Origin: a virus | Taxonomy: Duplodnaviria; Caudoviricetes | Length of the DNA stretch: 64,000 nucleotides | Reading direction: 5' to 3' (one strand) | IMG/VR virus record: IMGVR_UViG_3300028888_000002 | Notes under the pieces: model-generated | What the model was told of the DNA's origin: nothing | Databases searched by the model: none | What the model saw: the letters and a program-made list of their open reading frames with translations, nothing else | Shown: piece by piece, positions 1 to 34,853 of the stretch | Layout of the letters: every line of letters begins with the position of its first letter | Position numbering within the stretch: position 1 is the stretch's first letter | Made by a program: the position numbers and the translations under genes

Positions 1-15
1 CCATACTGAAATCCT

Positions 16-261
16 TTAAGAAATGTGATACTTGCACATAACGTAAAGCAGGCTGATTACAAGGGCACTGATTACGGTAATGCTCAACAGGACAACCGCC
101 TTGAACGGCTGCTTTCGGGACGCTTCCAGGTAACGACCGTGTTCATATTCCAGGGCTGCGTAAATGCTTGAAACAAGCAGGTAGTCGTCCTGGCTATCGC
201 TGACACTGTGGGCACGATACTGCTTGAACGCAGCTACACCTTGTTCATATTTGTTTGGCAT
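16..261 (-). CDS. hypothetical protein with C-terminal transmembrane segment
   Basis: ORF track; hydrophobic C-terminal stretch AVVLLSITVISALVISLLYV. Confidence 0.6.
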   Translation of the reverse strand: MPNKYEQGVAAFKQYRAHSVSDSQDDYLLVSSIYAALEYEHGRYLEASRKQPFKAVVLLSITVISALVISLLYVMCKYHIS

Positions 262-296
262 TCTGTTCCTCGTTAGGTTTATAGTTTCTTTTAAGC

Positions 297-575
297 CTAG
301 TTTGTTACTATAGGATTTCCTTTGAATACGTCAAACTCACTTTCAAAAGTGGCTTCGTCATAAACAACAATATCGTCACCGTTTTTAACAATATATGTGC
401 CAACTTGTGCCGTGTAACTAAATCCATTTGCGGTGCGAATGCAAATCGGAGACCCCTGTGCCACTACCGTTCCAGAGACGGACGCTCTACCTTTGCAAAA
501 GCGGAGAACTTCTAGTAAGTTGTCACCCCTGTAGTAAATGCAATCGCACACTGTTCCTTTAGTATTAGATGTCAT
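297..575 (-). CDS. hypothetical phage protein
   Basis: Start moved to MTSNTKG, whose ATG overlaps the upstream stop (ATGA). Confidence 0.55.
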   Translation of the reverse strand: MTSNTKGTVCDCIYYRGDNLLEVLRFCKGRASVSGTVVAQGSPICIRTANGFSYTAQVGTYIVKNGDDIVVYDEATFESEFDVFKGNPIVTN

Positions 576-21517: not shown

Positions 21518-21704
21518 TTTTATACTTTTCCTTTTCGCTCAAAGTTTCAAGCATAGTAATCGGCAGGGTAGCTAACGCTGCAAGTGCCCAGGACACTTCT
21601 TCTTTCGTGATTTCGCCCGACTCAACCATTTTACGTGCTGCGTCCATAGGGGTGCGTGTTTTCACAACAGCGTTCAACTTTTTCCAAAATTGCAGAATAT
21701 CCAT
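21495..21704 (-). CDS. hypothetical protein
   Basis: AAGGA RBS; precedes MTase 1. Confidence 0.55.
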   Translation of the reverse strand: MDILQFWKKLNAVVKTRTPMDAARKMVESGEITKEEVSWALAALATLPITMLETLSEKEKYKSGIEQTL

Positions 21705-21712
21705 AAATCCTT

Positions 21713-21749
21713 AAAATAAAAAGTAGCGGGGCAACACGCCCCACTACTA
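21713..21749 (-). terminator. intrinsic terminator-like hairpin after recA
   Basis: AGTAGTGGGGC..GCCCCGCTACT followed by TTTTATTTT on the minus strand. Confidence 0.7.
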
Positions 21750-21774
21750 CAAATATAGACAGATAACGACCTTT

Positions 21775-23091
21775 TTAGGTTGCGTCTGCTGCGGGTTCGG
21801 CTACGGGTTCGGCAGCAGGCTTTTCAGCGTAGTTGTTGCCGTATTTGGCAGGACGCTTTGTCGCCACAGCGTCTTCGTGTTCTTCCCATTTCGCCCTTAC
21901 ACGTTCTGTGAGTTCCTTCGCCATTTCGGGGTTGTCTTCACACAGCTTAATAAGTTCGTCACGGGTAAATTCTTCGCCAAATTCGTCGTCAAAGTTAGCC
22001 TTGCGTTCGGGGTCTTCGGTAGCCCAACCGATAATCCAATCCACGGAAAGATTAGCGTTGCCTTCCTGGGATTTCTTGTCTTCCCTGCATTCCGCAGTCC
22101 AACCGTTCTTTTCAAGCCACGCTTTAAGGTTGGGGAGGGATTTCTTCTTTGCCGTAGCACTCCAAGCGATAGCGTTAGCAGCCTTTGTGAGCAGCTTGCC
22201 GTCGTCGCCACGCAGGTCAAACAGGTAGTCAATGTTGGAACCGATATTGTCAATACCGTAGTCAAAGTAAGCGGTATAGACGATTTCACGGAACGGACGG
22301 GGTGTCTTTGACTTCGTTGTAACAGCCTTGACGACCACGCCTACCTTTGTGCCCTCACGCTCAATAAATGCGAGCCTGGACAGCTTCAAGCGGGTATGGC
22401 AGTAGAACTCCATAGCGTCACCGTTGCCCGTTTTTTTCTTCGGGGCGAACGCACCCACGGCACCGAAGTTGCAGCGGGTCTGCGACACGATAATGAGCGT
22501 GAGTTTCTTGCGTTCCAACGCCTTGTGCTTGTTACGGAAAAAGTCCTGGGACAAGAACTTTGCGATTTGGGCACCGTAGTCACCGTCGTCCTTGACTTCT
22601 TCACCCTTTGCCTGCTGCTTTGCACGTTTGGCTTCCTTTTCCTTTTTGGTCTTGTCTGCAAGACCGTCCAGGGAGTCCACCGCATAGATACCATACATAT
22701 CTTCGGGCATCCAATTCAGCATATTCGTAAGTTTACCGTCCATTTCTTCAACGGTTTCGGAGTCTTCAAATTTAAGGTTTCCAATCTTACGAACTTCGGG
22801 GTGAATGTTCACACCATACAGGCGTTCGGTCTTGAACGTATCGCCCGTTTCGGAGTCGTCCGACTCCCAAACAAGTTTAGCTTTCGGACCGCCCATAGCC
22901 CAATAGGTTGACGCAATCATTTCGTTCTTGATAAAGGTCTTACCCGCAGAGCTATCGCCCCAAATTTGGATAATGGCACCGAACGGCAAACCATAGACAC
23001 CTTTATCGCCACCAATGAGCAGGTCAAGCAAATCGCTGCCCATACGCACACGGGGTTCTTCCACAACCACGTTTTCTTTCTTTTTAGCCAT
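21775..23091 (-). CDS. recA: RecA/UvsX-like recombinase with a 57-aa C-terminal insertion
   Basis: GSDLLDLLIGG..GLPFGAIIQIWGDSSAGKT (Walker A), AVDSLDGL (Walker B), IIVSQTR, GNGDAMEFY, KSKTPRPFR, YGID. Confidence 0.9.
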   Translation of the reverse strand: MAKKKENVVVEEPRVRMGSDLLDLLIGGDKGVYGLPFGAIIQIWGDSSAGKTFIKNEMIASTYWAMGGPKAKLVWESDDSETGDTFKTERLYGVNIHPEVRKIGNLKFEDSETVEEMDGKLTNMLNWMPEDMYGIYAVDSLDGLADKTKKEKEAKRAKQQAKGEEVKDDGDYGAQIAKFLSQDFFRNKHKALERKKLTLIIVSQTRCNFGAVGAFAPKKKTGNGDAMEFYCHTRLKLSRLAFIEREGTKVGVVVKAVTTKSKTPRPFREIVYTAYFDYGIDNIGSNIDYLFDLRGDDGKLLTKAANAIAWSATAKKKSLPNLKAWLEKNGWTAECREDKKSQEGNANLSVDWIIGWATEDPERKANFDDEFGEEFTRDELIKLCEDNPEMAKELTERVRAKWEEHEDAVATKRPAKYGNNYAEKPAAEPVAEPAADAT

Positions 23092-23105
23092 AGTAATATC
23101 CTGGT

Positions 23106-23140
23106 TAAAAAGGGGCGTTAGCGTGAGCCAACGCCCCCTG
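23106..23140 (-). terminator. intrinsic terminator after ssb
   Basis: GGGGCGTT..AACGCCCC followed by TTTTT on the minus strand. Confidence 0.75.
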
Positions 23141-23157
23141 TTTGTTTACGGGTTATT

Positions 23158-24717
23158 TTACTTCTTGCGAGCCATCAAGCGTTTGCACTTGTCACACTTG
23201 GACCAAATGGCTTCGGGACAACGGCTGCACAAAGGCATTTTTTCACAGTCGGTTCCGAACTCATAACCATTCGGGCATTCGCCTTCGTCCACGTCACGCT
23301 TCGGCACAGACCTCGGAGCGGGCTTTGCAGGCTGTTCTTCGGGCTGTTCGTCGTCAAACGGCATAGTCGGTGCAGGTGCTTCGGAACGGGTCGTTTCTTT
23401 GGACGAATCCTGGTCCACGGCAGTCTTGCGGGAATTGCGACGGGCTGCGGTGTAAGGGTCCGTATTGAAATCGGCTTCGTCAAGGGTAGCGTCTTTCGGT
23501 TCGTTATCCTTGAAGCGGGCAGGGGCTTCGTCCTGTGCAGGGCGACGACGTGCGGGTGCCTCGTCTTCTTCCTGGACGGGGCGACGACGAGCAGGGGCTT
23601 CGTCCTGCGGTTCTTCTGCAACAGGGCGACGACGAGTCGGTGCAGGCTGTTCGTCTTCGGCTTCGTCGGCAACAGGGCGACGACGTGCAGGTGCTTCGTC
23701 CTGCGGTTCTTCGGCAGCAGGACGACGACGTGCCTGTGCGGGCTGTTCGTCTTCTTCAACTTCTGCGTGGCGACGACGATTAGTCGGCTGTTCGTCACCC
23801 ATATCGTCGGACGGGTTGTTATCACGGAAACGTGCAGGTGTAGCCTGTCCTTCGTCGCCTTCGTCGGGCTGATTTTCATAGCCCTCTTCAACGTCGTCGG
23901 GGTCGCCATAAAGAGCAGCTTTAAGTTGGTCGTAGGTCTTAATCACCATCATAGCGTCAAGCGACGGGCACTTTGCGAGAACGTCCGCAGCGATTTCTTC
24001 CTTGCGTTCGTTGAACTCAAAGTTAGCAGCTTTCTTGAATTTCTTGCCGTTGCCCATAGTGTCTTCGTTCACGTTGAACGACACGACACGACCTTCTTCA
24101 ATGGAAGTGTCGGCAAAGTTCACAACGCCCTTGCCACGCATACAGGCGGTGGCACGGTCCTGCAAGTCCTTTGAGAAGACAGCGTGGGACACTTCAAAAA
24201 TCTTCGGGTCTTCGCCCTTGTCGTAAAATTCGTCGGTGAGTTCCTGGACAACGTAAATGCACTTGCGACGGGCAAAGAGCTTGCGGGCTTCGTCCTTTGT
24301 GCGTTCGTCTTTCCAAAGTTCGTCGGCACGTTCGCAAATCGGGCACGGCTTACCGAAGTTTTTCTTCGGGCAAATGTAGTCACCGTTCCCAGGTCCGATG
24401 CGGGTATGCACCATAAGGTCAAGCACGTAATCCAGGTCGCCAACCATAACCTTTGCGGGGTTCGGGTTGCCGTTACGCAGAAATTCGGGTTCGTCCTTTG
24501 TGCGGACAACTTCGGGATGGTTCTTTGTTGCAATCTTCCACGGAAGAATGTTAATGTCGTGGTAAGTGCCAGGGTCGCCCATTTTGAAAAATTTGAGTTT
24601 GGTGGACCCATAGTTCATAAATCCTTGACGGGTTACACCACCGTTGGATTCACGGGTATCTGTTTGCTGTTGGGTGCGACGACCCAGGGACATACGGCTG
24701 CGGTCATATCCTGCCAT
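23158..24717 (-). CDS. T4 gp32-like single-stranded DNA-binding protein with repetitive C-terminal region and terminal Cys cluster
   Basis: H..IG..N..YICPKKNFGKPCPICE zinc motif, long acidic tail, position between uvsY-like and recA. Confidence 0.75.
   Translation of the reverse strand: MAGYDRSRMSLGRRTQQQTDTRESNGGVTRQGFMNYGSTKLKFFKMGDPGTYHDINILPWKIATKNHPEVVRTKDEPEFLRNGNPNPAKVMVGDLDYVLDLMVHTRIGPGNGDYICPKKNFGKPCPICERADELWKDERTKDEARKLFARRKCIYVVQELTDEFYDKGEDPKIFEVSHAVFSKDLQDRATACMRGKGVVNFADTSIEEGRVVSFNVNEDTMGNGKKFKKAANFEFNERKEEIAADVLAKCPSLDAMMVIKTYDQLKAALYGDPDDVEEGYENQPDEGDEGQATPARFRDNNPSDDMGDEQPTNRRRHAEVEEDEQPAQARRRPAAEEPQDEAPARRRPVADEAEDEQPAPTRRRPVAEEPQDEAPARRRPVQEEDEAPARRRPAQDEAPARFKDNEPKDATLDEADFNTDPYTAARRNSRKTAVDQDSSKETTRSEAPAPTMPFDDEQPEEQPAKPAPRSVPKRDVDEGECPNGYEFGTDCEKMPLCSRCPEAIWSKCDKCKRLMARKK
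23515..23790 (-). repeat. tandem coding repeats (E/Q)DE(A/Q)PA(x)RRRP, about 6-7 units, in the SSB tail
   Basis: Repeated GACGAAGCCCCTGC..CGTCGTCGCCCTG units. Confidence 0.8.
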
Positions 24718-24867
24718 ATTGAACTCCTATTTGTTTAGTTTGCGTTTTGCGTTTTGTTTCTGTTCACTATTCACATAACCCTTTGGAGCGGAGAACCCCG
24801 CAGGGTTGATAATTCAATATAGCAACATAGCGACAAAATTGCTATATGTCATACTGAAAACTTTGTG

Positions 24868-25356
24868 TTACCTGCCGTTCAAATGCCTACGGATAGAGTT
24901 CGTGGATTCGTCGCCCGCCCAATCTTCGGCTACGCCTTTGGAACTCAACACGTTAGACTTTGACAGCATCATACGGACGGCACATTCAATCATAGACTTC
25001 TTTTGGTCAAGAGCCTTAACCTTGCCGTCCAACTTTTTAAATTCCTTTGTCTTTTCAACGATAACCTTACGCTGCTCCACCAGGCGGGAGTCGGACGCAA
25101 CCAGGGCTGTGACTTCGGGGATAGTCAACTTGACCTTGTTCTTTTCAGCGTCCTTACGGATTTCAAGTTCAACTTCGCCCTCCATTCGTTTGAGGGTGTC
25201 CGCTGCGTCGTCACGTTCCGCAAGGGCATCCACAGCCAGGTCGCTGTAATAGGCATACAAGGACGACTGCATAGCCACTGCGGGCTGCAAATCCATAAAG
25301 TCAATTTCCAAGTCGGGGTCAACCGTATTTATGGAAAAGTTGTAGTTCCCGTTCAT
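24868..25356 (-). CDS. UvsY-like recombination mediator (coiled coil)
   Basis: DLEID..DL....Q..LY.YY..L...A; KLTIPEV; LDQKKSMIE; context next to ssb/recA. Confidence 0.6.
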   Translation of the reverse strand: MNGNYNFSINTVDPDLEIDFMDLQPAVAMQSSLYAYYSDLAVDALAERDDAADTLKRMEGEVELEIRKDAEKNKVKLTIPEVTALVASDSRLVEQRKVIVEKTKEFKKLDGKVKALDQKKSMIECAVRMMLSKSNVLSSKGVAEDWAGDESTNSIRRHLNGR

Positions 25357-25398
25357 AAGGGTTCCTTTTGTTTAAGGGTTAATCGGGTTAAAAAATAA

Positions 25399-25471
25399 TG
25401 GACGTGACAGGGCTTGAACCTGTAACCGTCGGGTTATGAGTCCGATGCACTAACCATTGTGCTACACGTCC
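25399..25471 (-). tRNA. tRNA with CAT anticodon (Met or Ile2), no encoded CCA
   Basis: GGACGTG acceptor pairs with CACGTCC+A; D arm GCAC-AATGGTTA-GTGC; loop CTCATAA; T arm ACAGG-TTCAAGC-CCTGT. Confidence 0.9.
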
Positions 25472-25483
25472 ATTTCAGCCTAG

Positions 25484-26428
25484 CTACTTCAAGGACCTGT
25501 AAGCAGCCAGGACAATGCCAGGAAATCCCGTGTCATAGGTGTTAATGGCAAATTCTTCCATAACACGGCAAATGCGGTCACTGCTCTTTTTAAGCAGGAT
25601 AGCGGAGCAGTAACCCAGGACGGCACGACGGATAGTTTCAGCGTCAACGTTGCCCTTGAGTTCCCGCAGGGACTTGTTAATTTCATTCCAGGACGGCTTG
25701 CTGTCACAAAGGGCACGGCAAAGGTCCAGGGTATTCGGGTCGTCTTCAAGACCACCCTCCAGGATTTTCAACTGTGCTTCAACGTCGTTGGGGCTTGCCA
25801 TAACCTTTTCAAGTGCAACCAGGGCAGCACGGGGCGAGCCGTCGGCAGATTCAATGATAGCCGTAAGAACCTTGTCGTCCACTTCAAACTTTTCCGCTTC
25901 GGCAGTCCGCAGGACCAACTTGCCCAACTGTCGGGCGTTGAGCGGTTCTAGCTTCCATTGGGTGCTGCGGGTGGCGAGAGCCTTACCCTCGTCGCCTTTA
26001 AGCAACTGCTGTAAGTTCGTTGTGCAGAAGAAGAAATAGACGTGGGCGGGCATATCCTCGGTAGGCTTCAAGAATGCACGTTTAGCGTCTGCGGTCATAC
26101 CGTGGGCTTCGTCAATGATATAGACCACGGACCTGCCTTTAAGGGGCAGAGAACGCATTTGGTCCCTAATGTCACGGACGGTATCAATGCCACGGTTGTC
26201 GGACGTATTGATTTCGTGAATGCTGAAATCGGGGTCAGCGTGAAGCAGCTCCGTAGCGATAATGCGGGCGATTGTGGTCTTGCCTGCACCGCTAGACCCG
26301 TAGATAATGTGGCAGTGCGACACACGCTTCGGGTCCTGTGCGAAATGGGTTTGAATGGCATTGATTACCTCGGTGTTGCCTACCATATCGGCAAACGTCT
26401 TCGGGCGATACACTTGATAAAGTGACAT
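25484..26428 (-). CDS. dnaX: clamp loader, DnaX gamma/tau-like AAA+ ATPase
   Basis: SLYQVYRPKTFADMVG, GSSGAGKTT, RGIDTVR, IIDEAH, AFLKPTE, GSPRAAL. Confidence 0.9.
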   Translation of the reverse strand: MSLYQVYRPKTFADMVGNTEVINAIQTHFAQDPKRVSHCHIIYGSSGAGKTTIARIIATELLHADPDFSIHEINTSDNRGIDTVRDIRDQMRSLPLKGRSVVYIIDEAHGMTADAKRAFLKPTEDMPAHVYFFFCTTNLQQLLKGDEGKALATRSTQWKLEPLNARQLGKLVLRTAEAEKFEVDDKVLTAIIESADGSPRAALVALEKVMASPNDVEAQLKILEGGLEDDPNTLDLCRALCDSKPSWNEINKSLRELKGNVDAETIRRAVLGYCSAILLKKSSDRICRVMEEFAINTYDTGFPGIVLAAYRSLK

Positions 26429-26429
26429 A

Positions 26430-26789
26430 TTACAGATTCCCCAGGGAAATGTTGTATTTGGTGGTTAAGAGTTTTTCCAGGTCGTCCTTGAGCGAAAGGA
26501 CTTCGCCCATATTCGGGTCGTGACCCGTAAAGGTGCGGAGTATAGAAGACGCAAAGTCTTCAAGGTTGGAGTTCGCAAGTTCCTGTTCCTTTTCTTCAAG
26601 TTCTTCTTCCAGGTCTTCAACACGGGAAGCCAGGGTAGCATTGTCGTCTTCAAGGCTATCAATGCGGTCTTCGTATTCTGCCTGGAGTCTATCAATGCCG
26701 TCCTTGATTTCGTCGGCAATATCGGTATATTTTTCTGCAAGGCGGTCAACGTTGTCCTTGATGTCTTGCACGTCGGTATCTGTTACCAT
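26430..26789 (-). CDS. acidic coiled-coil hypothetical protein
   Basis: Start MVTDTD after AACCGAGGA RBS. Confidence 0.65.
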   Translation of the reverse strand: MVTDTDVQDIKDNVDRLAEKYTDIADEIKDGIDRLQAEYEDRIDSLEDDNATLASRVEDLEEELEEKEQELANSNLEDFASSILRTFTGHDPNMGEVLSLKDDLEKLLTTKYNISLGNL

Positions 26790-26835
26790 AGTTAATCCTC
26801 GGTTTTGGGTTAAAACAGTGATACGGGCACACGCT

Positions 26836-27090
26836 TTACGTGTTGACGGGTTCGGCACCCGTGTATTTTTGCAGCAGGCGTTCCACTTCGTTTTTGAAAT
26901 CAAGAACGTCGTTCTGCAACGGCACGGTCCCCGTATATTTTTTGAGAAGTTCATAGCATAACGATTCTGTCGTAATGTTATCCAGGACCGAAGCAGTGTC
27001 CGTCGGGAGCCTGTCAAGGTTATCAAGGGCTTCGGTAACTACCGCTTGAATATCGCCCAGGTATTTCTTTGCAACTTCAAAGTTATTCAT
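26836..27090 (-). CDS. hypothetical protein, paralog of the C-terminus of 26430..26789
   Basis: Shared L.N...E...L...TG..P....VL..K...E.LL..KY pattern. Confidence 0.65.
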   Translation of the reverse strand: MNNFEVAKKYLGDIQAVVTEALDNLDRLPTDTASVLDNITTESLCYELLKKYTGTVPLQNDVLDFKNEVERLLQKYTGAEPVNT

Positions 27091-27127
27091 AGGTTGGTTT
27101 CCTTAATAGGTATATAGTCGTATGGTG

Positions 27128-27910
27128 TCAAATTCCGATATTGCCGTAAATGTAGAACGGTCCCGTCAAGTCCCGCAGACGCTTGTTTGCCACTTCGCAG
27201 TATTCGGTATTTGTTTCAAATCCGATAAATTTGCGGTTTTCCATAACCGCAGCGACGGCAGTAGTCCCGCTACCCATACAGTTATCCAGGACCACTTCGC
27301 CAGGATTCGTGTAGGTTCTCACCAGGTATCGGATTAGGTCAACGGGCTTTTCCGTCGGGTGCAATTTGTTGGCGTGGACGGGCGTAAAGCTAATGATAGA
27401 TACGGGGTGTTTGTCCGTATAGACATTCTGCTGTTTAGCCATTGTATTCTTATGCAGCAGCCCGCAGGTGTTAAGCCCCCCGCCATTTCGCACGGGAACG
27501 TCCCGTAGGGTCTTTTGGGGATAATACCGCATAGAGTGACCGTTGTTGGTGAAACAAGCACTGCTCTTGCTGAATACGCTAATCAATTCGTGGATTCTAC
27601 CGCATTGGTAGTTCATTAGCTGAAAGTTGCTAGGCTTTTCCTTGTTCCAAACCCAATCGTAACGATACATAGCCACGTTGCTCGCACGTAGCAGGCTGCT
27701 GAATGGTTCGGAACCGAACAGGACAATAGCCCCATCTTCACGGATAACCCGCTTATACTGTTCCCACAGCGGTTCAAACGGGATAACAGAATCCCACTTG
27801 CAGGCGGTAGTCCCGTAAGGCAAATCGCAGATTATACAGTCAACGGAGCCGTCGGGGATTTCTTTCATACCCTCCAAACAGTCCATATTGTAAATGCGGT
27901 TCAAATCCAT
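27128..27910 (-). CDS. DNA N6-adenine/N4-cytosine methyltransferase, beta class (MTase 2)
   Basis: DCLEGM, CDLPYG, HPTEKP, DNCMGSGTT. Confidence 0.92.
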   Translation of the reverse strand: MDLNRIYNMDCLEGMKEIPDGSVDCIICDLPYGTTACKWDSVIPFEPLWEQYKRVIREDGAIVLFGSEPFSSLLRASNVAMYRYDWVWNKEKPSNFQLMNYQCGRIHELISVFSKSSACFTNNGHSMRYYPQKTLRDVPVRNGGGLNTCGLLHKNTMAKQQNVYTDKHPVSIISFTPVHANKLHPTEKPVDLIRYLVRTYTNPGEVVLDNCMGSGTTAVAAVMENRKFIGFETNTEYCEVANKRLRDLTGPFYIYGNIGI

Positions 27911-27913
27911 ACG

Positions 27914-28726
27914 CTATACTCCAATGTTTCCGTAGATATAGAACGGACCCGTCAAATCCCGCAGACGCTTGTTCGCCTTGTCAAAGTAATCCTTGTCGGT
28001 TTCAAACCCGATAAACTTACGGTTCTCTAAAACTGCTGCAACAGCAGTCGTCCCGCTACCCATACAGTTATCCAAAATGGTATCACCTGGATTTGAGTAG
28101 GTGCGGACAAGATAACGGATTAGCTCCACAGGTTTCTGTGTCGGGTGGAAGCGTTGGTCCAGGTCGCTCTTGTATTCCTTTGAGTAACTTTGGCAGTGCG
28201 GGATTTTCGCACATACTACGCTAATCGGATAGCGGGTTCCGTCTTCCTGCGGACGGGTCCTGTGCATAGACCCATAGATATTGTTCCCGATAAATTCATT
28301 GTCCTTAAAGGTCTTTCGCTGCGTGAGAAATTCCTTTTTATCCACAAGCCATTTCTGCGGGTTGAACGTAGGCTTCCCCGATTTGGAAAACACAATAATG
28401 TTTTCGTGAAGTTTAAGGTGCTTACTATCCTTGCTGAAACCCGAAGCAGGTTTGTTTTTGAGCCAACACAGTTCTTCCCTAAATTGGGAAATGTTGCTGC
28501 TAATGAGCATACTTGTAAACGGCTGCGAGCCGAACAAAATAATCGGGGCGGTATCTTTACAGATACGGTGGTATTGCTCCCACAGCGGTTCAAACGGAAT
28601 AACAGAATCCCAGGCACAAGAGGTCGTGCCATAAGGTAAATCACAAATGACACAATCCACCGTTCCGTCGGGAATTTCTTTCATTCCAACCAGGCAGTCT
28701 TCGTTATAAATTCTGTTCAGTTCCAT
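27914..28726 (-). CDS. DNA N6-adenine/N4-cytosine methyltransferase, beta class (MTase 3)
   Basis: Start MELNRIY; CDLPYG, HPTQKP, DNCMGSGTT. Confidence 0.92.
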   Translation of the reverse strand: MELNRIYNEDCLVGMKEIPDGTVDCVICDLPYGTTSCAWDSVIPFEPLWEQYHRICKDTAPIILFGSQPFTSMLISSNISQFREELCWLKNKPASGFSKDSKHLKLHENIIVFSKSGKPTFNPQKWLVDKKEFLTQRKTFKDNEFIGNNIYGSMHRTRPQEDGTRYPISVVCAKIPHCQSYSKEYKSDLDQRFHPTQKPVELIRYLVRTYSNPGDTILDNCMGSGTTAVAAVLENRKFIGFETDKDYFDKANKRLRDLTGPFYIYGNIGV

Positions 28727-28727
28727 A

Positions 28728-31412
28728 TCAATGTGCAGCCTCAAACTTCGCCTGCCAATTTTCGGGCATACCCTCGGTCCGCAAGGCTCCCACTTCTGTC
28801 ATTTTAGCCCAGGACCCGTCAACGTAAGACGCATCGGCTTCAATGACAAGCGGAACGCAAATCCACGGAAATTCTTCGCTTACACGCTTCACACCGTTGC
28901 CATAGACAATCTTCGCCACCTTGTCTTCTTCGCCCTCTTTAACGAGAGCAATAATAGCGTCGTGAATTTGTCCGATAATGCAGGAAAGCAAGCCCTGGGA
29001 CTTGAAGTCCTGCAAGTCGTAGGTCAATGCTCGCAGCAAGATATGGAACGCAGACCCTTGAATGCAGCAGTTCGTAGCCTGGGTGTAGCCCATAGGTCCC
29101 CAACAGCGGAAACCCGTGTAGGACTGCACATAGCCCATCTTTTGATAGCGGTCCCATTCGGTCCTACGCCACGCATTATAGACCTTGAAGCGTTGGTTCC
29201 AAAATATATCGTCGCCTTTCTTGACGTGTGCTTCCCACTTTTCGTAGGTCGTAATCTTGTGGTCCTTTGCCAAATGTTCCTTCGTGTAGGCAGGCATATT
29301 GTTCCACATATTTCGGGCACACGACTTGTAGGACGCACCGTAGAACGACGAGAACACATAGCCCGATTTGATAGACGAGCGTTCTTCCTTTGTAAGTTCT
29401 TCGGGCGTTCGGATATACATATCGCAAGCAGTATCACGGTGCATATCCGAAGCGGGGTTCTGCAAGTAGTGAATCATCTGCGGGTCGTGGTGATAGCTTG
29501 CGGACACCATAACTTCCAGGGACTTGTAGTCCATTTCCATAAAGCGGTAGCCCTTTGGAGCCACGAACAACGTTCGCAGGATTTTCTTCATTTCCTTATC
29601 ACGCTTCGGAATGTTTTGAAAGTTCGGGCTGTCAGCCGACGAACGGTAGGTTCGGGGACCCGCATCGTCTTCACCGCCCGCACCCGTTGACAGGTTAAAG
29701 AACGGACGGATTAGGTAGGCTTGCTTTTCTTCGTCCCATACGGCTTCACGTCTGTAGCCATCCAGGAAGTCCATAATCTTTGCCCAACGACGCATTCCCA
29801 AAATGGACTTGCAGAACGGGGTTCCCAACTTTTCCAGGGTGTCGCCCGTAGCGTCTTCCTTACCCGAAGGCGGTTTCAGCTTGCAAATCTTGTAAAGGAC
29901 TTCGGCAATTTGTTTGTTAGAGAGCGGGTTGAAAGTTTCGCCAGGGTGCAGCTTGCACCACTGCTTCGCTTCGTCGGACGCTTTGACGGCTTCTTCGGAT
30001 TCCTTGAACTTGTCTTCAAGTTCCTTTTGCAAGTCGTTAATCCTGCCATAGTCAATCGGCAAACCCTCGGACTGCACACGGGCGAGAGCGTCCATACCTT
30101 TCATAAAGAAGCGGAACGACTTTTCAAGACCAACCATCTGTGCGGACTGAATGTCACGCAGCGGGAGCGTATAAATGGAGTCAAGACCGCAATAGTAGAT
30201 AATGTCGCCTTTGGGGACACCCACGCCCTTTTTGAGCAGGTTAAAGGCGTTGCAGCTCTTTGTGTCTTCCCCGTCCATAATCGTAGAAATGAAATGGTCC
30301 GCTTTGTTGTCGTAGCCGATAACGCCCAATTCACAGTAGGTGTGGAATTTCAGCCCAACCTTTTGGGAGTTGTCTAGGACGTGGGCACCCAGGCAAGTGT
30401 CCCAGGACCAATTATCAATCCAATCTGTGCGGGAGTTATGCAGACCCGCCCTAAACCTGGTCCAACAGGCTTCATAGTCAGCCTTGTGTGCAACCAACCC
30501 TATTTTCTTGTGGTGCGTGAGTTTATACCAGGCATTCACCAGGCGTTCGTTGTCACCGTCCCACCAAATACCGATAGCGTGATACTCACCGTCCTTACGA
30601 TAGCCGACGGACGCAGCCTTGATTTCGTGACCTGCACGGTGGGGTTTCAAGCCCGTGGTTTCGTAATCAATGGAAACGTCGTGATAGCCTTCGGGAGCCT
30701 TGTCAAGTTGGTCTGTTTCAGCCCATTCAATGATTTCTTCAATCCAATCGGCTGCGGTGTCTGCATCGCCTGTGGTGCGAACGTCCGTCGGTATTTTCGG
30801 CAGCGGGGTATCTTTTATTTGATAGGCTAGACGGATATGCTGCGAGAAATACATATACGGGCAACCGTCGTCACGCTGCCAGGTCAAAAATTCGGGCGAG
30901 TAGGTCGGGCAAATCCAACAGTTGTAGAAGCGGTCGGGAATGCGTTTACCGTAAAGGTCCGACGGCTTCGTGTTGCCGATACGTCCGCTCATACGGTCCC
31001 AAATAAGTGCCTGGATAGCTGCGGGACCCATAGGAATGATTACGTTCGGCTTCAATTCGTTAATGAGCCTGTTCAAGCGTTCCTTGCAACAGTCGGGCTT
31101 CGGGTCCTTGTCGTTTTGACACGGGCACGGGATTACATAACCAATCCAGGCGGATTCCAGGAAATCCCTGGGCAGTCCACGCCTACCCTGCAAGTCCCAA
31201 AGATAATCATACATTTTATGTAGGAACACCGTGTCGTGGTCGTTGCCTTCCTTTCCACGGGGGTGGTCGCACAGGAACAGAACCTTGTCCTTGCCCTTAC
31301 CCGCAAACGGTAAATCCTTGCCCGATTGGTCTAATCCGCAGGCTAGACAGCCTGTAAGTTTCGGCTTCGCTGACATTGCTTGAATGGCAGCGGGAATTTT
31401 GAAAAAGCCCAT
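28728..31412 (-). CDS. polA: family A DNA polymerase with N-terminal UDG-family-4-like domain and 3'-5' exonuclease
   Basis: CLAC..CC UDG-like N-terminus; DYETTG exo I; RSSADSPNFQNIP; motif A DYKSLE; motif B RSSIKSGYVFSSFYG; motif C IHDA. Confidence 0.92.
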   Translation of the reverse strand: MGFFKIPAAIQAMSAKPKLTGCLACGLDQSGKDLPFAGKGKDKVLFLCDHPRGKEGNDHDTVFLHKMYDYLWDLQGRRGLPRDFLESAWIGYVIPCPCQNDKDPKPDCCKERLNRLINELKPNVIIPMGPAAIQALIWDRMSGRIGNTKPSDLYGKRIPDRFYNCWICPTYSPEFLTWQRDDGCPYMYFSQHIRLAYQIKDTPLPKIPTDVRTTGDADTAADWIEEIIEWAETDQLDKAPEGYHDVSIDYETTGLKPHRAGHEIKAASVGYRKDGEYHAIGIWWDGDNERLVNAWYKLTHHKKIGLVAHKADYEACWTRFRAGLHNSRTDWIDNWSWDTCLGAHVLDNSQKVGLKFHTYCELGVIGYDNKADHFISTIMDGEDTKSCNAFNLLKKGVGVPKGDIIYYCGLDSIYTLPLRDIQSAQMVGLEKSFRFFMKGMDALARVQSEGLPIDYGRINDLQKELEDKFKESEEAVKASDEAKQWCKLHPGETFNPLSNKQIAEVLYKICKLKPPSGKEDATGDTLEKLGTPFCKSILGMRRWAKIMDFLDGYRREAVWDEEKQAYLIRPFFNLSTGAGGEDDAGPRTYRSSADSPNFQNIPKRDKEMKKILRTLFVAPKGYRFMEMDYKSLEVMVSASYHHDPQMIHYLQNPASDMHRDTACDMYIRTPEELTKEERSSIKSGYVFSSFYGASYKSCARNMWNNMPAYTKEHLAKDHKITTYEKWEAHVKKGDDIFWNQRFKVYNAWRRTEWDRYQKMGYVQSYTGFRCWGPMGYTQATNCCIQGSAFHILLRALTYDLQDFKSQGLLSCIIGQIHDAIIALVKEGEEDKVAKIVYGNGVKRVSEEFPWICVPLVIEADASYVDGSWAKMTEVGALRTEGMPENWQAKFEAAH

Positions 31413-31477
31413 AAATCTTTATTCCGTAAACGTTAAACTTCTGTAATATAGATATAGCACAAGAGCGACTAAAAGAT

Positions 31478-31510
31478 AGAAATGCCGAAGCTATAAAGCC
31501 TCGGCATTCC
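31478..31510 (-). terminator. intrinsic terminator-like hairpin after clamp 1
   Basis: AATGCCGA..TCGGCATT followed by TCTATCTTTT on the minus strand. Confidence 0.6.
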
Positions 31511-31532
31511 TTTCTTACGAGGACACAACAAA

Positions 31533-32630
31533 CTATTTGGTAGCGGTCGCACCCTGGACGAACTGCATAAATTCGCCCGATTGGAAAACAAGGGACAAGG
31601 ACGGGGGAGCCGTCGGGTCCATATCCATATAGCAAAGGGTAAAGTCCATAACCTTGTTGGACGCTTCCAACAAGAACGAAGTGTTTACCCAAACTTCGGT
31701 GTTCTGCGGGTCTTCTTCAAGTTCGGTTTCCCACGGGATAGTTTCGGACGCTTCACCGCCTGTCTTTTCGGCATACAGTTCAAGTTCGTCCTTACGGAAC
31801 GTCAAACGCACCATACGGGCATTCTTCTTGTCAACGCCCGAAGCCAGGATAGCCACACGGGACACGGCTTCTGCGATATTGTTCGGAAGACGACCCTTGA
31901 CGAGAACCTTTGCTTTTTCAAATGCGGTCGGGAACGTAGAAAGACCGTCAAACGGATATGCTACGTGGTCCTTACGCTTTGCAGAAAACACGGTGCCGTC
32001 GGCATACTTGAGGTGCAACCAGGCATCGCTTACGCAGTAGCCCGTCGGGGTGCCCACCTTGAAAGCGTTGTTGAACACCGTATCGTCAACCCAAAACGGG
32101 TCCATACGTTCGGACAACTTGTTAATGCAGACACGCACGGAGTCGGTTTCATAGACTGCGGAGCCTTCGCCATAGTCATTCACTGCAACGCCACGGATAT
32201 TTTCAGCGTTACCCGAAAGATTACAGATATTCACAGCGTCAATGAATGCTTCGGGGAGGGGCTTGTATTCAAGCGACACCACGTTAAGGTCACGAATAAG
32301 GTTCATTACTTTGGACGAATCCTGGAGGGTCATAGTAGCCTTTGTGCGACCCGCCTTGATTTTAACCTTTGAGTCCACGACTTCAAGCGACAAGGTAACG
32401 TCGGACATACGGGAAACAAGGTTAAAGAAGTCCGCACCCTTTACAGAGAACGAAACGTTCTGCGTGTCGCACGGGGCAGACACAGCGATTTCGCTGTTGT
32501 AGGAACTGACAGACGCACCCGTGAAAAGAAGGAGGTCCGTGCCGTCAATCAAAGTGTTGCCTGTTTCAACACCAGGCATTACCTTTTTGAGAGATTCAAT
32601 GAGTTTAGCTTTTTCAATTTGGATTGCCAT
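31533..32630 (-). CDS. sliding clamp, DnaN/beta-like (clamp 1)
   Basis: 365 aa; I.K..L..SL..V, SYNSEIAVS, F.V....F.NLV, ETDSVR, YPF, AVSRVAILA; next to the polymerase. Confidence 0.75.
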   Translation of the reverse strand: MAIQIEKAKLIESLKKVMPGVETGNTLIDGTDLLLFTGASVSSYNSEIAVSAPCDTQNVSFSVKGADFFNLVSRMSDVTLSLEVVDSKVKIKAGRTKATMTLQDSSKVMNLIRDLNVVSLEYKPLPEAFIDAVNICNLSGNAENIRGVAVNDYGEGSAVYETDSVRVCINKLSERMDPFWVDDTVFNNAFKVGTPTGYCVSDAWLHLKYADGTVFSAKRKDHVAYPFDGLSTFPTAFEKAKVLVKGRLPNNIAEAVSRVAILASGVDKKNARMVRLTFRKDELELYAEKTGGEASETIPWETELEEDPQNTEVWVNTSFLLEASNKVMDFTLCYMDMDPTAPPSLSLVFQSGEFMQFVQGATATK

Positions 32631-32683
32631 TGTAGGTTTCCTTTATGTTGTTGTGTTCACGATAGGTATATAGTCGCATAGCG

Positions 32684-33313
32684 TCAATTACACGCTTTCT
32701 TGAATGCGTCCCAACGTTCGTCGTCTGCGTCAAAGCCTTCCAGGATAATGGGGGCTGCTTCGTGTGCATAGGGCAGGGCACGGACCGTGTTGTATTCGTA
32801 AAATTCTTCTGCGTCACGCAGTTTCAGTTCTTGCAGCAGTTCGGGATTTTGGAGTTCTTCTTCGGAGTATTCGCCCTTGTGGAGTTCCATAATATCCTTG
32901 TCGTCGTAGTCGTCTGCAAGACACTTGATACAGAGCTGTCTTTCATACACTGCAACAGTGACCTGGACTTCTTCGGTAAACTCACGGTCAAACAGGAACT
33001 TGCGATAATCGTCCCTGGCGACCCAAGACTTAATCCACCCCACCGAAAGTTCGTTGTTGCCCGTTTCTGCCACAAGCTGCATCCTGCACGACGACAAGAG
33101 GTCATTTGCGGTAAGCCATTTTTCCAGGTCTTTAAGGGTGTATTCCTTGTCCCTGGTCCTGGTGACTTCCGTTGTGCCAATCATAGCCTTTTCAAGCCCG
33201 TGCAGAATGCAAATGTTGTCACCCTCAAATTCGTCACGGCAGGTCGCTTCGTCAAATCGTTCCTTGACGAGTGCCCCGCAGTGGTCCAAATTGTATTCGG
33301 TATTCTGTTCCAT
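32684..33313 (-). CDS. conserved-type phage hypothetical protein carrying a 57-aa insertion homologous to the RecA insertion
   Basis: GLEKAMIG [insert] VAVYERQLCI...AEEFYEYNT...PII. Confidence 0.75.
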   Translation of the reverse strand: MEQNTEYNLDHCGALVKERFDEATCRDEFEGDNICILHGLEKAMIGTTEVTRTRDKEYTLKDLEKWLTANDLLSSCRMQLVAETGNNELSVGWIKSWVARDDYRKFLFDREFTEEVQVTVAVYERQLCIKCLADDYDDKDIMELHKGEYSEEELQNPELLQELKLRDAEEFYEYNTVRALPYAHEAAPIILEGFDADDERWDAFKKACN

Positions 33314-33337
33314 ATTATCCTCGGTTTTGTCGGTTAA

Positions 33338-34819
33338 TTATCTACGGGGGCGACCGCCACGGCTACCCGTGCGTCTTCCCGTCCGTCTTGCGGGCATACT
33401 GTCTTCGTCTTCGCTGCCGTCCCATTGTTCTTCCTGGCTCATATCCACACGGGACAACAGTTCGCATTCCATATAAGGTCTGCCGATAGCCAAACAGGTG
33501 GTGCAGACAACAGAATCCTGGACGGGGGCACCGTCACGGGTCGTATTGCAGGCAAGGCGGGTAATGCCACGCTTCTTTTCTGTGGGCGTGTGGTTAATCG
33601 TAATCATTTTGGTTACGTGAGCCACCTTTCGTATATCTTCGGACACCTGGTTTTCGGCTGCGTCCTGTTCGCCACCCACGGTAGCACGTCCCGTTTGGGA
33701 AACGGTTGCGAGCATACACTTACGGGTGCTTGCAAGACCACGAAGGGCTTTCCAACAGCGGTTAATCTTTTCACGTTCGTCGCTGCCAGGTCCCAGGTCC
33801 ATAATGTCTGCGTAGTCCACGCAGATAACTTCGGGTGCCCAACCGTTATAGACTTCCATATCCTTGAGTTCGGCTTCAAGACCCTTTACAGACAGGGTGC
33901 CTGTCGGGAACGTTCGCAGCTCAAACTTGTCGTTACGGGTAATCTTTCGGAACGCAGCCTGGGCTTTCTCAATGCCCTCAATGCTTGCGTCCACCCTATG
34001 CGACGGTTCGCTAACGTCGGCAAGTTGAGCGTTGCCCTCGTCGTCATAGACCATAACGGGATAATGCAATTCTTCGCCATAGCGGGACGACCCCGTAAGC
34101 ATTTGCCAAAATCTACGGACAACCTGCTTTTCGGACATTTCTAGCGAAACGTAAAGGACGTGCTTTCCCTGCAACGCAGCCTGGACCGCAATAGTCATAA
34201 GCCACCAGGTCTTACCGCTTTTCGGTGGACCGATAACGGCTACGAAGTCTTCCTGGATAAATGGACCGATTACGCTGCCCAGGACACCAGGCATTGTAAA
34301 GATTTCTTCTTCCTCGTTGACGAAAGCGTTGGCGATTGTGGCAGCGTCCCTAAACAGGTTCACGACCTGTGCCTGTCGCACGTCGGGCTTCGTAAATTCC
34401 GCAATAGCGTGATACCCGCTAGATACGTCCCCGTTTTGAATGGCACGGTTCAATTTTTCCGTTAGCAAGACCAGGGTGCGTTTCTGCAAATACTTGATAG
34501 CATTGTCGGTAGCCAGGGCTTCGTTTGTCGGCAACCATTCGTCGGACGCAGTGTCAAGAAAAGCCTTGACCATTTCCCCGTCGGCTTCTTTGAGTTCCGT
34601 ATAACGGTTGGCGTAAATGTCACTAATTGCCGTCTTCGGTGCTTCGCCATAGCGGTCATAGAAAGTCAAGACCCACGACGAAACAATCTTGCCCATATTG
34701 CTTTCAAACAGGATAGGGTCACACGACTTTCGGCATTTAGCCAAAAGGGGCGTGGACATAATCATATTCGCTAAAAGCCTACGTTCTTCGCTTATATCTA
34801 CTTTTTGGCGTTGGAGCAT
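33338..34819 (-). CDS. DnaB-like replicative helicase
   Basis: GPPKSGKT, YVSLEMS, VICVDYADIM, LRGLA, TVSQT, SEDIRK. Confidence 0.88.
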   Translation of the reverse strand: MLQRQKVDISEERRLLANMIMSTPLLAKCRKSCDPILFESNMGKIVSSWVLTFYDRYGEAPKTAISDIYANRYTELKEADGEMVKAFLDTASDEWLPTNEALATDNAIKYLQKRTLVLLTEKLNRAIQNGDVSSGYHAIAEFTKPDVRQAQVVNLFRDAATIANAFVNEEEEIFTMPGVLGSVIGPFIQEDFVAVIGPPKSGKTWWLMTIAVQAALQGKHVLYVSLEMSEKQVVRRFWQMLTGSSRYGEELHYPVMVYDDEGNAQLADVSEPSHRVDASIEGIEKAQAAFRKITRNDKFELRTFPTGTLSVKGLEAELKDMEVYNGWAPEVICVDYADIMDLGPGSDEREKINRCWKALRGLASTRKCMLATVSQTGRATVGGEQDAAENQVSEDIRKVAHVTKMITINHTPTEKKRGITRLACNTTRDGAPVQDSVVCTTCLAIGRPYMECELLSRVDMSQEEQWDGSEDEDSMPARRTGRRTGSRGGRPRR

Positions 34820-34853
34820 TTAAAACTTATCCTCGTAAGATATATATAGTCCG

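What the first reader, a model, noticed from the sequence alone, without database searches (positions are those of the whole stretch)
21970..33139. Same 57-aa domain inserted in RecA and in an unrelated phage protein
Seen: RecA residues encoded at 21970-22140 (SLPNLKAWLEKNGWTAECREDKKSQEGNANLSVDWIIGWATEDPERKANFDDEFGEE) align without gaps to 32969-33139 in ORF 32684..33313 (TLKDLEKWLTANDLLSSCRMQLVAETGNNELSVGWIKSWVARDDYRKFLFDREFTEE). They share 24/57 identities, including three Trp, CR, GN, LSV, RK and FD.EF.EE. From my recollection of these families, the segment interrupts otherwise contiguous sequence in both: GL..A.IG|VAVY in the hypothetical protein, and the C-terminal domain in RecA. Inference: a small mobile helical module used as a homotypic docking domain, or a decoy/regulator that mimics the RecA surface.
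Basis: partly seen in the sequence, partly recalled or inferred. Interest (0 to 1): 0.7.

Follow-up and report, generated by a model that had tools for sequence, protein, structure and literature searches.

The report
RecA subdomain copied into small phage protein
A folded four-helix piece of about 60 residues, which sits inside the tail domain of this uncultured phage's RecA recombinase, has also been copied into the tip of a hairpin in an unrelated small protein; the shared ancestry and both insertions are real, but what the copy does is unknown.

Summary
RecA residues 318-374 and residues 59-115 of the 209-aa ORF share 24/57 identities without gaps (z = 10.3 against shuffles; BLASTP E = 3e-12). 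A profile built from 120 other RecAs finds the ORF segment at 50.6 bits.

- **Insertion in the small protein.** The segment is a 65-residue insertion at a beta-hairpin tip of a phrog_13182-family protein. Orthologues without the insertion occupy the same helicase-to-clamp slot in related phages.
- **Insertion in RecA.** The segment lies between the beta-sheet of the C-terminal domain and the canonical terminal alpha-hairpin when compared with E. coli RecA. It is present in about 117 of 121 members examined in a large metagenomic RecA clade, so it is old there and not a recent arrival.
- **Origin.** The copies in the small protein form one clade and are nearest to this RecA subclade, so the likely direction is RecA to small protein. 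Two phages that are 96-99% identical differ by the presence or absence of the insert, with a recombination patch around it.
- **Scope.** No third protein context was found, and no known fold matched.

Function is inferred only. The module is an acidic helical unit that probably docks to a protein, letting the small protein reach, or compete for, a partner of RecA's tail domain.

The parts
21775..23091 (-). RecA-like recombinase gene (P0003, 438 aa), bacterial RecA type, member of a large metagenomic phage clade
   Evidence: Pfam PF00154 scores 54.7 bits against a cut-off of 27. The phrog_97 match has E = 1.2e-29. The AF2 model (pLDDT 84) aligns to E. coli RecA at Z 27.7, rmsd 3.0, 285 residues. 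There are 407 relatives.
21967..22158 (-). Four helices: H319-328, H332-343, H350-359, H361-371. Net charge -7.
21883..21963 (-). RecA residues 377-403, the counterpart of the canonical terminal alpha-hairpin of the RecA C-terminal domain (..CEDNPEMAKELTERVRAKWE), lying after the module
   Evidence: The VIA alignment ends at model residue 403, matched to E. coli RecA residue 328. Pfam RecA_C matches weakly at 377-402 against profile positions 31-56 of 57. Block-to-block hhalign gives R2 vs R3 P = 7e-5.
32684..33313 (-). Small accessory protein gene (P0004, 209 aa), phrog_13182 family, unknown function. GAGGA lies 5-6 nt upstream of the ATG.
32963..33160 (-). Module copy B: the inserted segment in P0004 (residues 52-117), which is 65 residues longer than the three-residue GD[HN] turn it replaces in insert-free forms. 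Four helices: H60-69, H73-84, H91-99, H102-112. Net charge -3.
33149..33184 (-). N-terminal strand (residues 44-55) of the long beta-hairpin that carries the module at its tip
   Evidence: AF2/DSSP.
32942..32977 (-). C-terminal strand (residues 113-124, ..TVAVYER) of the same beta-hairpin
   Evidence: AF2/DSSP.
33338..34819 (-). DnaB-like replicative helicase, immediately upstream of P0004 (context)
   Evidence: phrog_19 at 6.5e-41, plus Pfam DnaB_C and AAA_25.
31533..32630 (-). Beta-clamp-like processivity factor, immediately downstream of P0004 (context)
   Evidence: phrog_947 at 1.3e-16, plus Pfam DNA_pol3_beta_3.
23158..24717 (-). gp32-like single-strand DNA-binding protein (519 aa), immediately upstream of RecA (context; candidate common partner)
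   Evidence: Pfam gp32 at 1.5e-9 and phrog_1192.

Best explanation
What it is (shown). An acidic unit of about 60 residues, made of four helices (two alpha-hairpins), occurs in two otherwise unrelated proteins of this phage's replication and recombination gene block. In RecA it sits inside the C-terminal domain, between the beta-sheet and the canonical terminal hairpin, and it is a fixed feature of a large clade of uncultured-phage RecAs. In the 209-aa protein encoded between the DnaB-like helicase and the clamp, it is a clean domain insertion at the tip of a long beta-hairpin.

History (inferred). The module belonged first to RecA, where it may have arisen by tandem duplication of the terminal hairpin. 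It was copied once into the small gene. The insert-bearing allele has since been exchanged with insert-free alleles by homologous recombination between closely related phages.

How it most likely works (hypothesis). The module is a self-folding protein-docking surface and not a DNA-binding one. By displaying a diverged copy of it, the small protein is brought to, or competes for, the same phage-encoded partner that the RecA tail-domain extension engages. Candidates are the neighbouring gp32-like SSB or another replisome component. This would link or balance replication and recombination at the fork.
For: - **Homology.** and the gap-free joint alignment A7, in which W11, L12, C21, W42 and F57 are near-invariant in both families.
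- **Insertion in the small protein.** Only P0004 and P0127 of 24 representatives carry it. At 90% clustering, 24 clusters carry an insert at the same site that is 65 residues longer than the turn of insert-free forms, and the other forms keep a GD[HN] turn. Insert-free orthologues occupy the same helicase-to-clamp slot next to the same 438-aa RecA (L003, L004 and L009).
- **Fold.** The P0004 model has pLDDT 86.8, rising to 91-96 over the module, which sits at the tip of hairpin E44-55/E113-124. The RecA model shows the same four helices.
- **Insertion in RecA relative to canonical RecA.**. The nearest cultured-phage RecA (SSP002, 367 aa) lacks it, scoring 0.1 bits against the module HMM.
- **Fixed in the clade.** 117 of 121 members have 54-61 residues in those columns, down to 40% identity.
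- **Direction and single origin.** The scaffold modules form one clade (SH-aLRT 77). They are 35-46% identical to the modules of the window's own RecA subclade, against a median of 30% to the whole family.
- **Old event.** Nucleotide identity between the two coding segments is 51%, and the second codon position is the best conserved.
- **Allele exchange.** L007 and L009 are 96-98.6% identical over 20 kb, yet show a patch of mismatches running about 60 nt upstream and 90 nt downstream of the 195-nt indel. The scaffold-only tree needs at least 2 changes of insert state.
- **Docking and not DNA binding.** The net charges are -7 and -3. The setting is a co-directional replication and recombination gene block.
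Against: - No binding partner has been identified, and nothing here demonstrates any interaction.
- RecA's near-invariant K340 is not kept in the small-protein copies. Those copies have their own invariant motif (DDYR..LF.R[ED]FTE, against DPERK..F...FGE in RecA). The two surfaces have therefore diverged and may no longer bind the same ligand.
- Distant members of the scaffold family lie among arrays of small unknown genes and not next to replication genes. The scaffold's link to the replisome therefore rests on synteny in this phage group only.
- The insert can be present or absent in near-identical phages, so it is not essential.
- The attachment point of the small-protein clade within the RecA module tree is unresolved because only 57 columns are available.
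- The tandem-duplication origin rests on short profile comparisons (P = 7e-5, 6e-4 and 0.08).
Confidence: 0.5

Rival explanations
1. Decoy or counter-defence. The small protein is an accessory, early-type protein. Its RecA-derived module mimics the clade-specific surface of the phage RecA in order to soak up a host factor (a defence sensor or an inhibitor) that recognises that surface.
For: Presence or absence of the insert differs between phages that are 96-99% identical, with a recombination patch around it. The insert evolves faster than the scaffold, at 59% against 77% mean pairwise identity among insert-bearing alleles. Distant members of the family sit in arrays of small unknown genes typical of accessory regions. 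The acidic helical surface is compatible with mimicry.
Against: No host factor is known. In this phage group the gene sits in the middle of the core replication block. The copy has lost RecA's near-invariant K340 and differs at many exposed positions, which makes it a poor mimic of today's RecA surface. Other genes in the same genomes also show mosaic patches, so the polymorphism is not special to this gene.
Confidence: 0.2
2. Direct homotypic docking. The module in the small protein pairs with the module, or with the following C-terminal helices, of RecA itself. The small protein would then bind RecA filaments and cap, load or regulate them.
For: Both proteins are made from one co-directional gene block. 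Insert-bearing alleles were seen only alongside a module-bearing RecA where the contig was long enough to tell (the window; L007).
Against: Insert-free alleles coexist with an identical RecA module: the RecAs of L007 and L009 differ at only 2 residues, both outside the module. Both copies are acidic, which does not favour like-with-like pairing. There is no evidence that the module self-associates.
Confidence: 0.12
3. Passenger insertion. A piece of RecA-coding DNA landed in a permissive hairpin tip by illegitimate recombination and is merely tolerated, with no function of its own.
For: The site is a surface hairpin turn. The insert is dispensable in close relatives. It evolves faster than the scaffold.
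Against: It is kept in frame, at constant length, in 24 clusters that have diverged to 38-61% identity within the module. It has its own invariant residues: W, L, C, F and E. Codon-position conservation points to selection on the protein. It is predicted to fold with pLDDT 91-96.
Confidence: 0.1
4. Both proteins took the module independently from a third, still unseen, mobile domain family.
For: It is an insertion in both hosts relative to their wider families. The branching point in the module tree is unresolved.
Against: No third context appeared in phmmer of P0004 against 1.84 billion representatives, in the profile search of longer proteins or in IMG/VR. The small-protein copies are closest to the modules of the co-resident RecA subclade. 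The module's hairpins resemble RecA's own terminal hairpin.
Confidence: 0.07
5. Chance or compositional similarity between two helical segments.
For: None beyond the short length.
Against: z = 10.3, with none of 200,000 shuffles reaching even a third of the score. E = 3e-12. An independent family HMM scores 50.6 bits. The same four-helix architecture appears in both models.
Confidence: 0.01

Closest known systems
Bacterial RecA C-terminal domain (E. coli RecA residues about 270-328; Pfam RecA_C PF21096)
   Same: The window's RecA has the canonical core and C-terminal-domain elements. Its model superposes on E. coli RecA from residue 37 to 328 (Z 27.7). The terminal hairpin ..EDNPEMAKELTERVR.. 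corresponds to E. coli's ..KDNPETAKEIEKKVR.. (the E. coli sequence as shown).
   Different: About 60 extra residues (four helices) lie between the beta-sheet and the terminal hairpin. About 35 more residues follow, ending in an invariant K-Y. The Pfam RecA_C score is far below its cut-off (12.4 against 27). The canonical C-terminal domain has no known copy inside another protein.
Phage RecA/UvsX-like recombinases (phrog_97; Vibrio phage SSP002-type RecA; T4 UvsX)
   Same: All share the ATPase core: phrog_97 at 1.2e-29, and 30% identity to SSP002-type RecA over residues 40-290. SSP002 RecA shares the terminal '..W..IE....K.GKY' ending.
   Different: SSP002 RecA (367 aa) lacks the module, scoring 0.1 bits against the module HMM. 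UvsX is a weaker match than bacterial RecA, at PDB E = 9.6e-6 against 3e-14.
phrog_13182 (small phage proteins of unknown function)
   Same: The scaffold of P0004, with the motifs G[LM]E.AMIGT / VAVYER.LCI / FEYNT.R.LPY / AP.II.GF. 22 of 24 relatives match the PHROG, the best at 2.2e-9.
   Different: Most members are about 90-170 aa and lack the insert. Only the subgroup at 56% identity or more to P0004 carries the RecA-derived module.
BRC repeats of BRCA2, which mimic the RAD51 oligomerisation motif (my own knowledge; analogy only)
   Same: A piece of recombinase sequence displayed by a different protein, which is the kind of mechanism the decoy or regulator reading would imply.
   Different: BRC repeats mimic the polymerisation motif and are known to bind RAD51. 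Here the copied piece is a peripheral subdomain of the C-terminal domain, and no binding has been shown.
RecA regulators RecX, DinI and PsiB (my own knowledge)
   Same: Small proteins that act on RecA filaments, some through or near the C-terminal domain.
   Different: None is derived from RecA sequence. P0004 matched none of them by sequence or fold.

Membership tests
RecA (bacterial-type recombinase), for ORF 21775-23091 | Pfam RecA (PF00154) above the gathering score | tested here: met
   54.7 bits against a cut-off of 27, E = 1.3e-14.
RecA (bacterial-type recombinase), for ORF 21775-23091 | RecA fold including the core ATPase and the C-terminal domain | tested here: met
   The AF2 model against 3cmt_D gives Z 27.7, rmsd 3.0 and 285 aligned residues, model 12..403 to chain 37..328. 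Foldseek E = 1e-18.
RecA (bacterial-type recombinase), for ORF 21775-23091 | Walker A P-loop (G....GK[TS]) | tested here: met
   GDSSAGKT at residues 45-52. G50 and K51 are invariant in the family alignment.
RecA (bacterial-type recombinase), for ORF 21775-23091 | ssDNA-dependent ATPase and strand-exchange activity | not testable with these tools
   Needs biochemistry.
Pfam RecA_C (PF21096), for RecA residues 272-418 | Score above the gathering threshold | tested here: not met
   12.4 bits against a cut-off of 27. 6 of 21 relatives match weakly, the best at E = 0.01, and always at the post-module hairpin. By structure, the C-terminal domain is nevertheless present.
phrog_13182, for ORF 32684-33313 | Profile match of the protein and its relatives | tested here: met
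   P0004 itself matches only partly (E = 0.0018, residues 30-52) because the insert splits it. 22 of 24 aligned relatives match, the best at 2.2e-9.
Intein, intron or other self-splicing or homing insertion, for the 195-nt insert | Splicing motifs, a homing nuclease or a catalytic RNA structure | tested here: not met
   No Rfam family in 21000-35000 other than a tRNA. No flanking repeats. The insert is translated in frame, folds as four helices and is homologous to part of RecA.
Known RecA regulators (RecX, DinI, PsiB, RdgC), for ORF 32684-33313 | Sequence or fold match | tested here: inconclusive
   No Pfam hit. The best PDB Foldseek match has E = 0.4 and the best VIA match has Z 5.0, and none of these families is listed. 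Absence from these lists does not exclude a relationship.
Mobile (promiscuous) protein domain | Occurrence in three or more unrelated domain architectures | tested here: not met
   Only two contexts were found. The searches were not exhaustive with the joint profile.

The most novel reading that the evidence does not exclude
Phages of this group encode a 'recombinase-mimic' accessory protein. A small scaffold displays a copy of the phage RecA's own clade-specific tail subdomain, either to titrate a host factor that recognises the phage recombinase or to regulate RecA filaments. The insert-bearing and insert-free alleles would be kept in the population as a swappable cassette by an arms race. 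In principle this resembles BRC-repeat mimicry of RAD51, but the copied piece is a different part of the recombinase and the setting is a virus.
Probability: 0.15. Interest if true: 0.75.

Novelty: new variant of a known kind. Interest (0 to 1): 0.45.

Why it matters
Three things make this more than a routine annotation.

- It defines a large, previously undescribed clade of phage RecA proteins. They carry a four-helix expansion inside the C-terminal domain, the part of RecA that in bacteria governs duplex-DNA capture and contact with regulators.
- It gives a clean natural example of a subdomain of a core recombination enzyme being grafted onto a hairpin tip of an unrelated protein in the same genome.
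- Nature has already supplied the controls. Near-identical phages carry the small protein with and without the module, and RecA relatives exist with and without it. The question of what the RecA tail extension binds can therefore be tested directly by pull-downs with four matched proteins.

If the copy proves to be a regulator or a decoy, it would be a new way for a virus to tune or protect its recombinase. If not, it remains a well-documented case of domain shuffling in phage replication modules.

Tried and rejected
- **Complex prediction.** Complex prediction of RecA (A1) with P0004 (A6) returned 'no answer', with score 0.00 in both runs, and the controls were not run. This is evidence neither for nor against binding.
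- **Fold searches with the P0004 model.**
  - PDB by Foldseek: best E = 0.4.
  - PDB by VIA-align wide: best Z 5.0, generic helical matches only.
  - BFVD: only uncharacterised phage proteins with the insert-free scaffold fold.
  - ESM Atlas by shape: viral hypothetical clusters of about 100 aa, plus two fused forms.
  - No function emerged from any of these.
- **ESM Atlas feature search.** For the module alone and for the whole protein there were no usable hits, and the Atlas's own model is poor, with mean pLDDT 0.47.
- **Hybrid alignment.** An alignment of the scaffold family with RecA module fragments (A3) was misaligned by MAFFT and was discarded. A6, with 21 insert-bearing rows, was used for folding instead.
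- **RecA tail-domain searches.** A profile of the RecA C-terminal region (A10) against PDB sequences gave nothing significant. phmmer of the whole RecA aligned the module's first hairpin to E. coli's terminal hairpin. I first read that as 'the module begins with canonical sequence' and rejected the reading after the structural alignment and the RecA_C hits.
- **Scaffold as a RecA tail-domain derivative.** I considered whether the whole scaffold descends from the RecA C-terminal domain, as BLASTP's extension to residues 6-58 suggested. hhalign rejects this at P = 0.12. The comparison of A6 with A10 is uninformative because the insert columns are mostly gaps.
- **Helicase-loader idea for the scaffold.** This is not supported outside this phage group, since distant members lie among small unknown genes.
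- **Searches that returned nothing.**
  - Megablast of 21000-34000 against cultured phages: no match.
  - No whole genome is held for this window.
  - The search for related loci with the joint alignment A7 failed for lack of a conserved stretch.
  - With A8 it returned only 4 loci, all of scaffold type.
  - Two literature searches found no description of this RecA extension or of the small protein.


Full report
**1.

The window's plus-strand translations at the given coordinates are meaningless. On the minus strand they reproduce the quoted peptides exactly.
- The RecA-like ORF is 21775-23091(-), 438 aa (P0003).
- The second ORF is 32684-33313(-), 209 aa (P0004).
- RecA residues 318-374 and P0004 residues 59-115 align without gaps at 24/57 identities, BLOSUM62 score 116.
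- In 200,000 shuffles of one segment the mean was -53, the SD 16.4 and the maximum 39, so z = 10.3. No shuffle exceeded 15 identities.
- BLASTP of the whole proteins gives E = 3e-12.
- An HMM built from the same columns of 120 other RecA-family proteins, with the window's own left out, finds P0004 residues 59-114 at 50.6 bits and its relative P0127 at 42.5 bits. Insert-free relatives score 6 bits or less.
- tblastn finds no third copy in the window.

**2. Genomic setting.**

The window has no near relative among cultured phages, and no whole genome is held for it. Between 20.8 and 34.8 kb every gene is on the minus strand, and together they form a replication and recombination block:
- DnaB-like helicase (33338-34819);
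- P0004;
- beta-clamp-like protein (31533-32630);
- family A DNA polymerase (28728-31412);
- two N6/N4 methyltransferases;
- a coiled-coil protein;
- clamp loader (25484-26428);
- a tRNA-Met;
- an unknown 162-aa protein;
- a 519-aa gp32-like SSB (23158-24717);
- RecA;
- a third methyltransferase.

Relatives of both proteins sit on metagenomic contigs of 160-230 kb with the same gene order. One is labelled as a Clostridia MAG. This is therefore an uncultured large phage of an animal-gut type community.

**3. The small protein: a true domain insertion.**

phmmer of P0004 against 1.84 billion representatives gave 42 hits, all small proteins.
- In their alignment only P0004 and P0127 carry the segment.
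- At 90% clustering, 24 clusters (196-220 aa, 56-97% identical to P0004) carry the insert. It is always at the same site and always 65 residues longer than the GD[HN] turn of the insert-free forms.
- The family matches phrog_13182, of unknown function, in 22 of 24 members, and has no Pfam family.
- AlphaFold2 with a 50-row alignment gives pLDDT 86.8 and pTM 0.74. The model has a long beta-hairpin (strands 44-55 and 113-124) with four helices at its tip (60-69, 73-84, 91-99, 102-112; pLDDT 91-96), followed by a helical C-terminal half.
- Outside the module the scaffold is unrelated to RecA: hhalign of the insert-free profile against the RecA C-terminal profile gives P = 0.12. BLASTP's extension to residues 6-58 is therefore not homology.
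- No RNA family and no flanking repeats accompany the insert, so it is not an intron, an intein or a transposon scar.

**4. RecA: an insertion too, but an old and fixed one.**

P0003 belongs to a family of more than 400 metagenomic proteins of about 400-480 aa.
- The module columns are filled with 54-61 residues in 117 of 121 members examined. One of the other four is truncated (2 residues); the other three have longer segments of 66, 68 and 103 residues. W325, K340, F371 and G372 are invariant or nearly so, down to 40% identity.
- I first took this to mean that the module was ordinary RecA sequence, because phmmer aligned NLKAWLEKNGW... to E. coli's NATAWLKDNPE.... Three results overturn that reading.
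  - The AlphaFold2 model (pLDDT 84) superposes on E. coli RecA from model 12..403 to chain 37..328 with 285 aligned residues (Z 27.7, rmsd 3.0). The canonical last helix is therefore the one ending at residue 403, after the module.
  - Pfam RecA_C, though below threshold, matches residues 377-402 (profile positions 31-56 of 57) in 6 of 21 relatives. The string CEDNPEMAKELTERVR is visibly the counterpart of KDNPETAKEIEKKVR.
  - The nearest cultured-phage RecA (Vibrio phage SSP002, 367 aa, about 30% identical over residues 40-290) lacks the module (0.1 bits). It keeps the terminal hairpin and the final K-Y.

**5. A possible origin of the module.**

Profile-profile comparison of three consecutive blocks of the RecA family was run for R1 (316-346), R2 (346-375) and R3 (374-406, the canonical hairpin).
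- All three pairs align in one register.
- R2 vs R3 gives P = 7e-5 (probability 63%), R1 vs R2 gives P = 6e-4, and R1 vs R3 gives P = 0.08.
- This suggests, without proving, that the module arose within RecA by tandem duplication of its terminal alpha-hairpin. It would also explain the phmmer alignment.

**6. Direction and later history.**

- The modules of the small proteins form one clade in a joint tree (SH-aLRT 77). Where that clade attaches is unresolved with only 57 columns.
- They are 35-46% identical to the modules of the RecA subclade to which the window's own RecA belongs, against a median of 30% to the family as a whole.
- Universal presence in RecA, restricted presence in the scaffold family, and the internal-repeat signal together make a single RecA-to-scaffold transfer the economical reading.
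- The event is old. The two coding segments in the window are 51% identical at the nucleotide level, with the second codon position best conserved.
- On a tree of the scaffold columns alone, the insert-bearing proteins are not one clade. The tree needs 4 changes, and well-supported branches force at least 2.
- The reason shows in L007 (insert, 229.8-kb contig) against L009 (no insert). They have the same gene order and 96-98.6% identity over 20 kb, and their RecAs differ at two residues outside the module. A patch of mismatches runs about 60 nt upstream and 90 nt downstream of the 195-nt indel.
- That is allele replacement by homologous recombination. The same genomes have two other such patches.

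**7. What it does.**

Nothing here shows function. These points bear on it:
- Both copies are acidic (net -7 and -3) and helical, which argues against DNA binding and for a protein-contact or mimicry surface.
- The residues shared by both families (W, L, C, W, F) look like core positions.
- RecA's near-invariant K340 is lost in the copies, and the copies have their own invariant DDYR..LF.R[ED]FTE motif. The surfaces have therefore diverged.
- Among insert-bearing alleles the insert is less conserved than the scaffold (59% against 77%), yet its length, reading frame and fold are kept.
- The insert is dispensable in close relatives.

I commit to the reading that the module is a self-folding docking unit through which the small protein reaches, or competes for, a partner of RecA's tail extension within the phage's replication and recombination machinery. 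The adjacent gp32-like SSB is the first candidate. The rivals are a decoy for a host factor, direct binding to RecA, and a tolerated passenger.

**8. Comparison with what is known, and novelty.**

- The RecA is a member of the bacterial RecA type (Pfam, fold and P-loop all met). It carries an undescribed expansion of the C-terminal domain.
- The small protein is a phrog_13182 member with a grafted domain.
- I found no paper describing either feature and no solved or predicted structure that explains the scaffold.
- Domain grafting as such is ordinary. A subdomain of a recombinase re-used in a neighbouring accessory protein, with natural plus and minus alleles, is a new variant. It is worth a modest experimental follow-up.

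**9. Verdict.**

- Interest is 0.45.

Noticed in passing
window 20834-21517, 27128-27910, 27914-28744 (all minus strand): Three paralogous N6/N4 DNA methyltransferase genes are scattered through the replication block (phrog_67, PF01555). Related contigs carry up to four.
   Followed up: no
window 28728-31412 (-): The family A DNA polymerase has a weak uracil-DNA-glycosylase-superfamily match at residues 42-180 (PF03167, E = 2.8e-4, below the cut-off), ahead of the polymerase domain.
   Followed up: no
window 23158-24717 (-): The gp32-like SSB is unusually long at 519 aa. The gp32 domain covers only residues 114-257, leaving large unexplained N- and C-terminal regions.
   Followed up: no
window 25398-25472 (-): A lone tRNA-Met (CAT) lies between the clamp-loader gene and an unknown 162-aa gene.
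   Followed up: no
window 21775-21900 (-), RecA residues about 398-438: Beyond the canonical end, the RecA family has conserved W402, E403 and E406 and an invariant K416-Y417 ('RPxKYG'). Vibrio phage SSP002 RecA also ends in '..KTGKY'. This may be a short C-terminal peptide motif for a partner.
   Followed up: partly
window about 22582-22653 (-), RecA residues about 147-170: There is a second family-wide helical insertion in the RecA core (KTKKEKEAKRAKQQAKGEEVKDDGD), a helix predicted at residues 147-161 and present across the family alignment. I infer that it lies among the roughly 100 model residues that do not align to E. coli RecA.
   Followed up: no
L007 4250-4750 and 15500-16000, compared with L009: Two further local divergence patches separate these otherwise 96-99% identical phage contigs. 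One lies in the SNF2-type helicase gene (faint intein hit) and one in the 126-aa versus 119-aa coiled-coil gene. Cassette-like allele exchange is therefore common in this phage group.
   Followed up: partly
proteins P0130, P0132, P0199-P0210, P0138, P0141 (relatives of P0004): The scaffold family also occurs fused to an extra C-terminal domain (203-272 aa) and as two tandem copies in one protein. ESM Atlas rows show the fold fused to an HTH domain or to NAD synthase.
   Followed up: no
L007 about 10001 (start of the insert-bearing gene): A 1-nt difference in an A-run near the start codon makes the gene residues shorter than in relatives. This could be an assembly error or a real frameshift near the start.
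   Followed up: no
P0153 (relative of P0004): One distant scaffold member has a different, shorter insertion at the same hairpin tip (..PLDKSK..LAKDKDGKYYGKSESEIPDS..). The tip therefore seems to be a permissive site for insertions.
   Followed up: no
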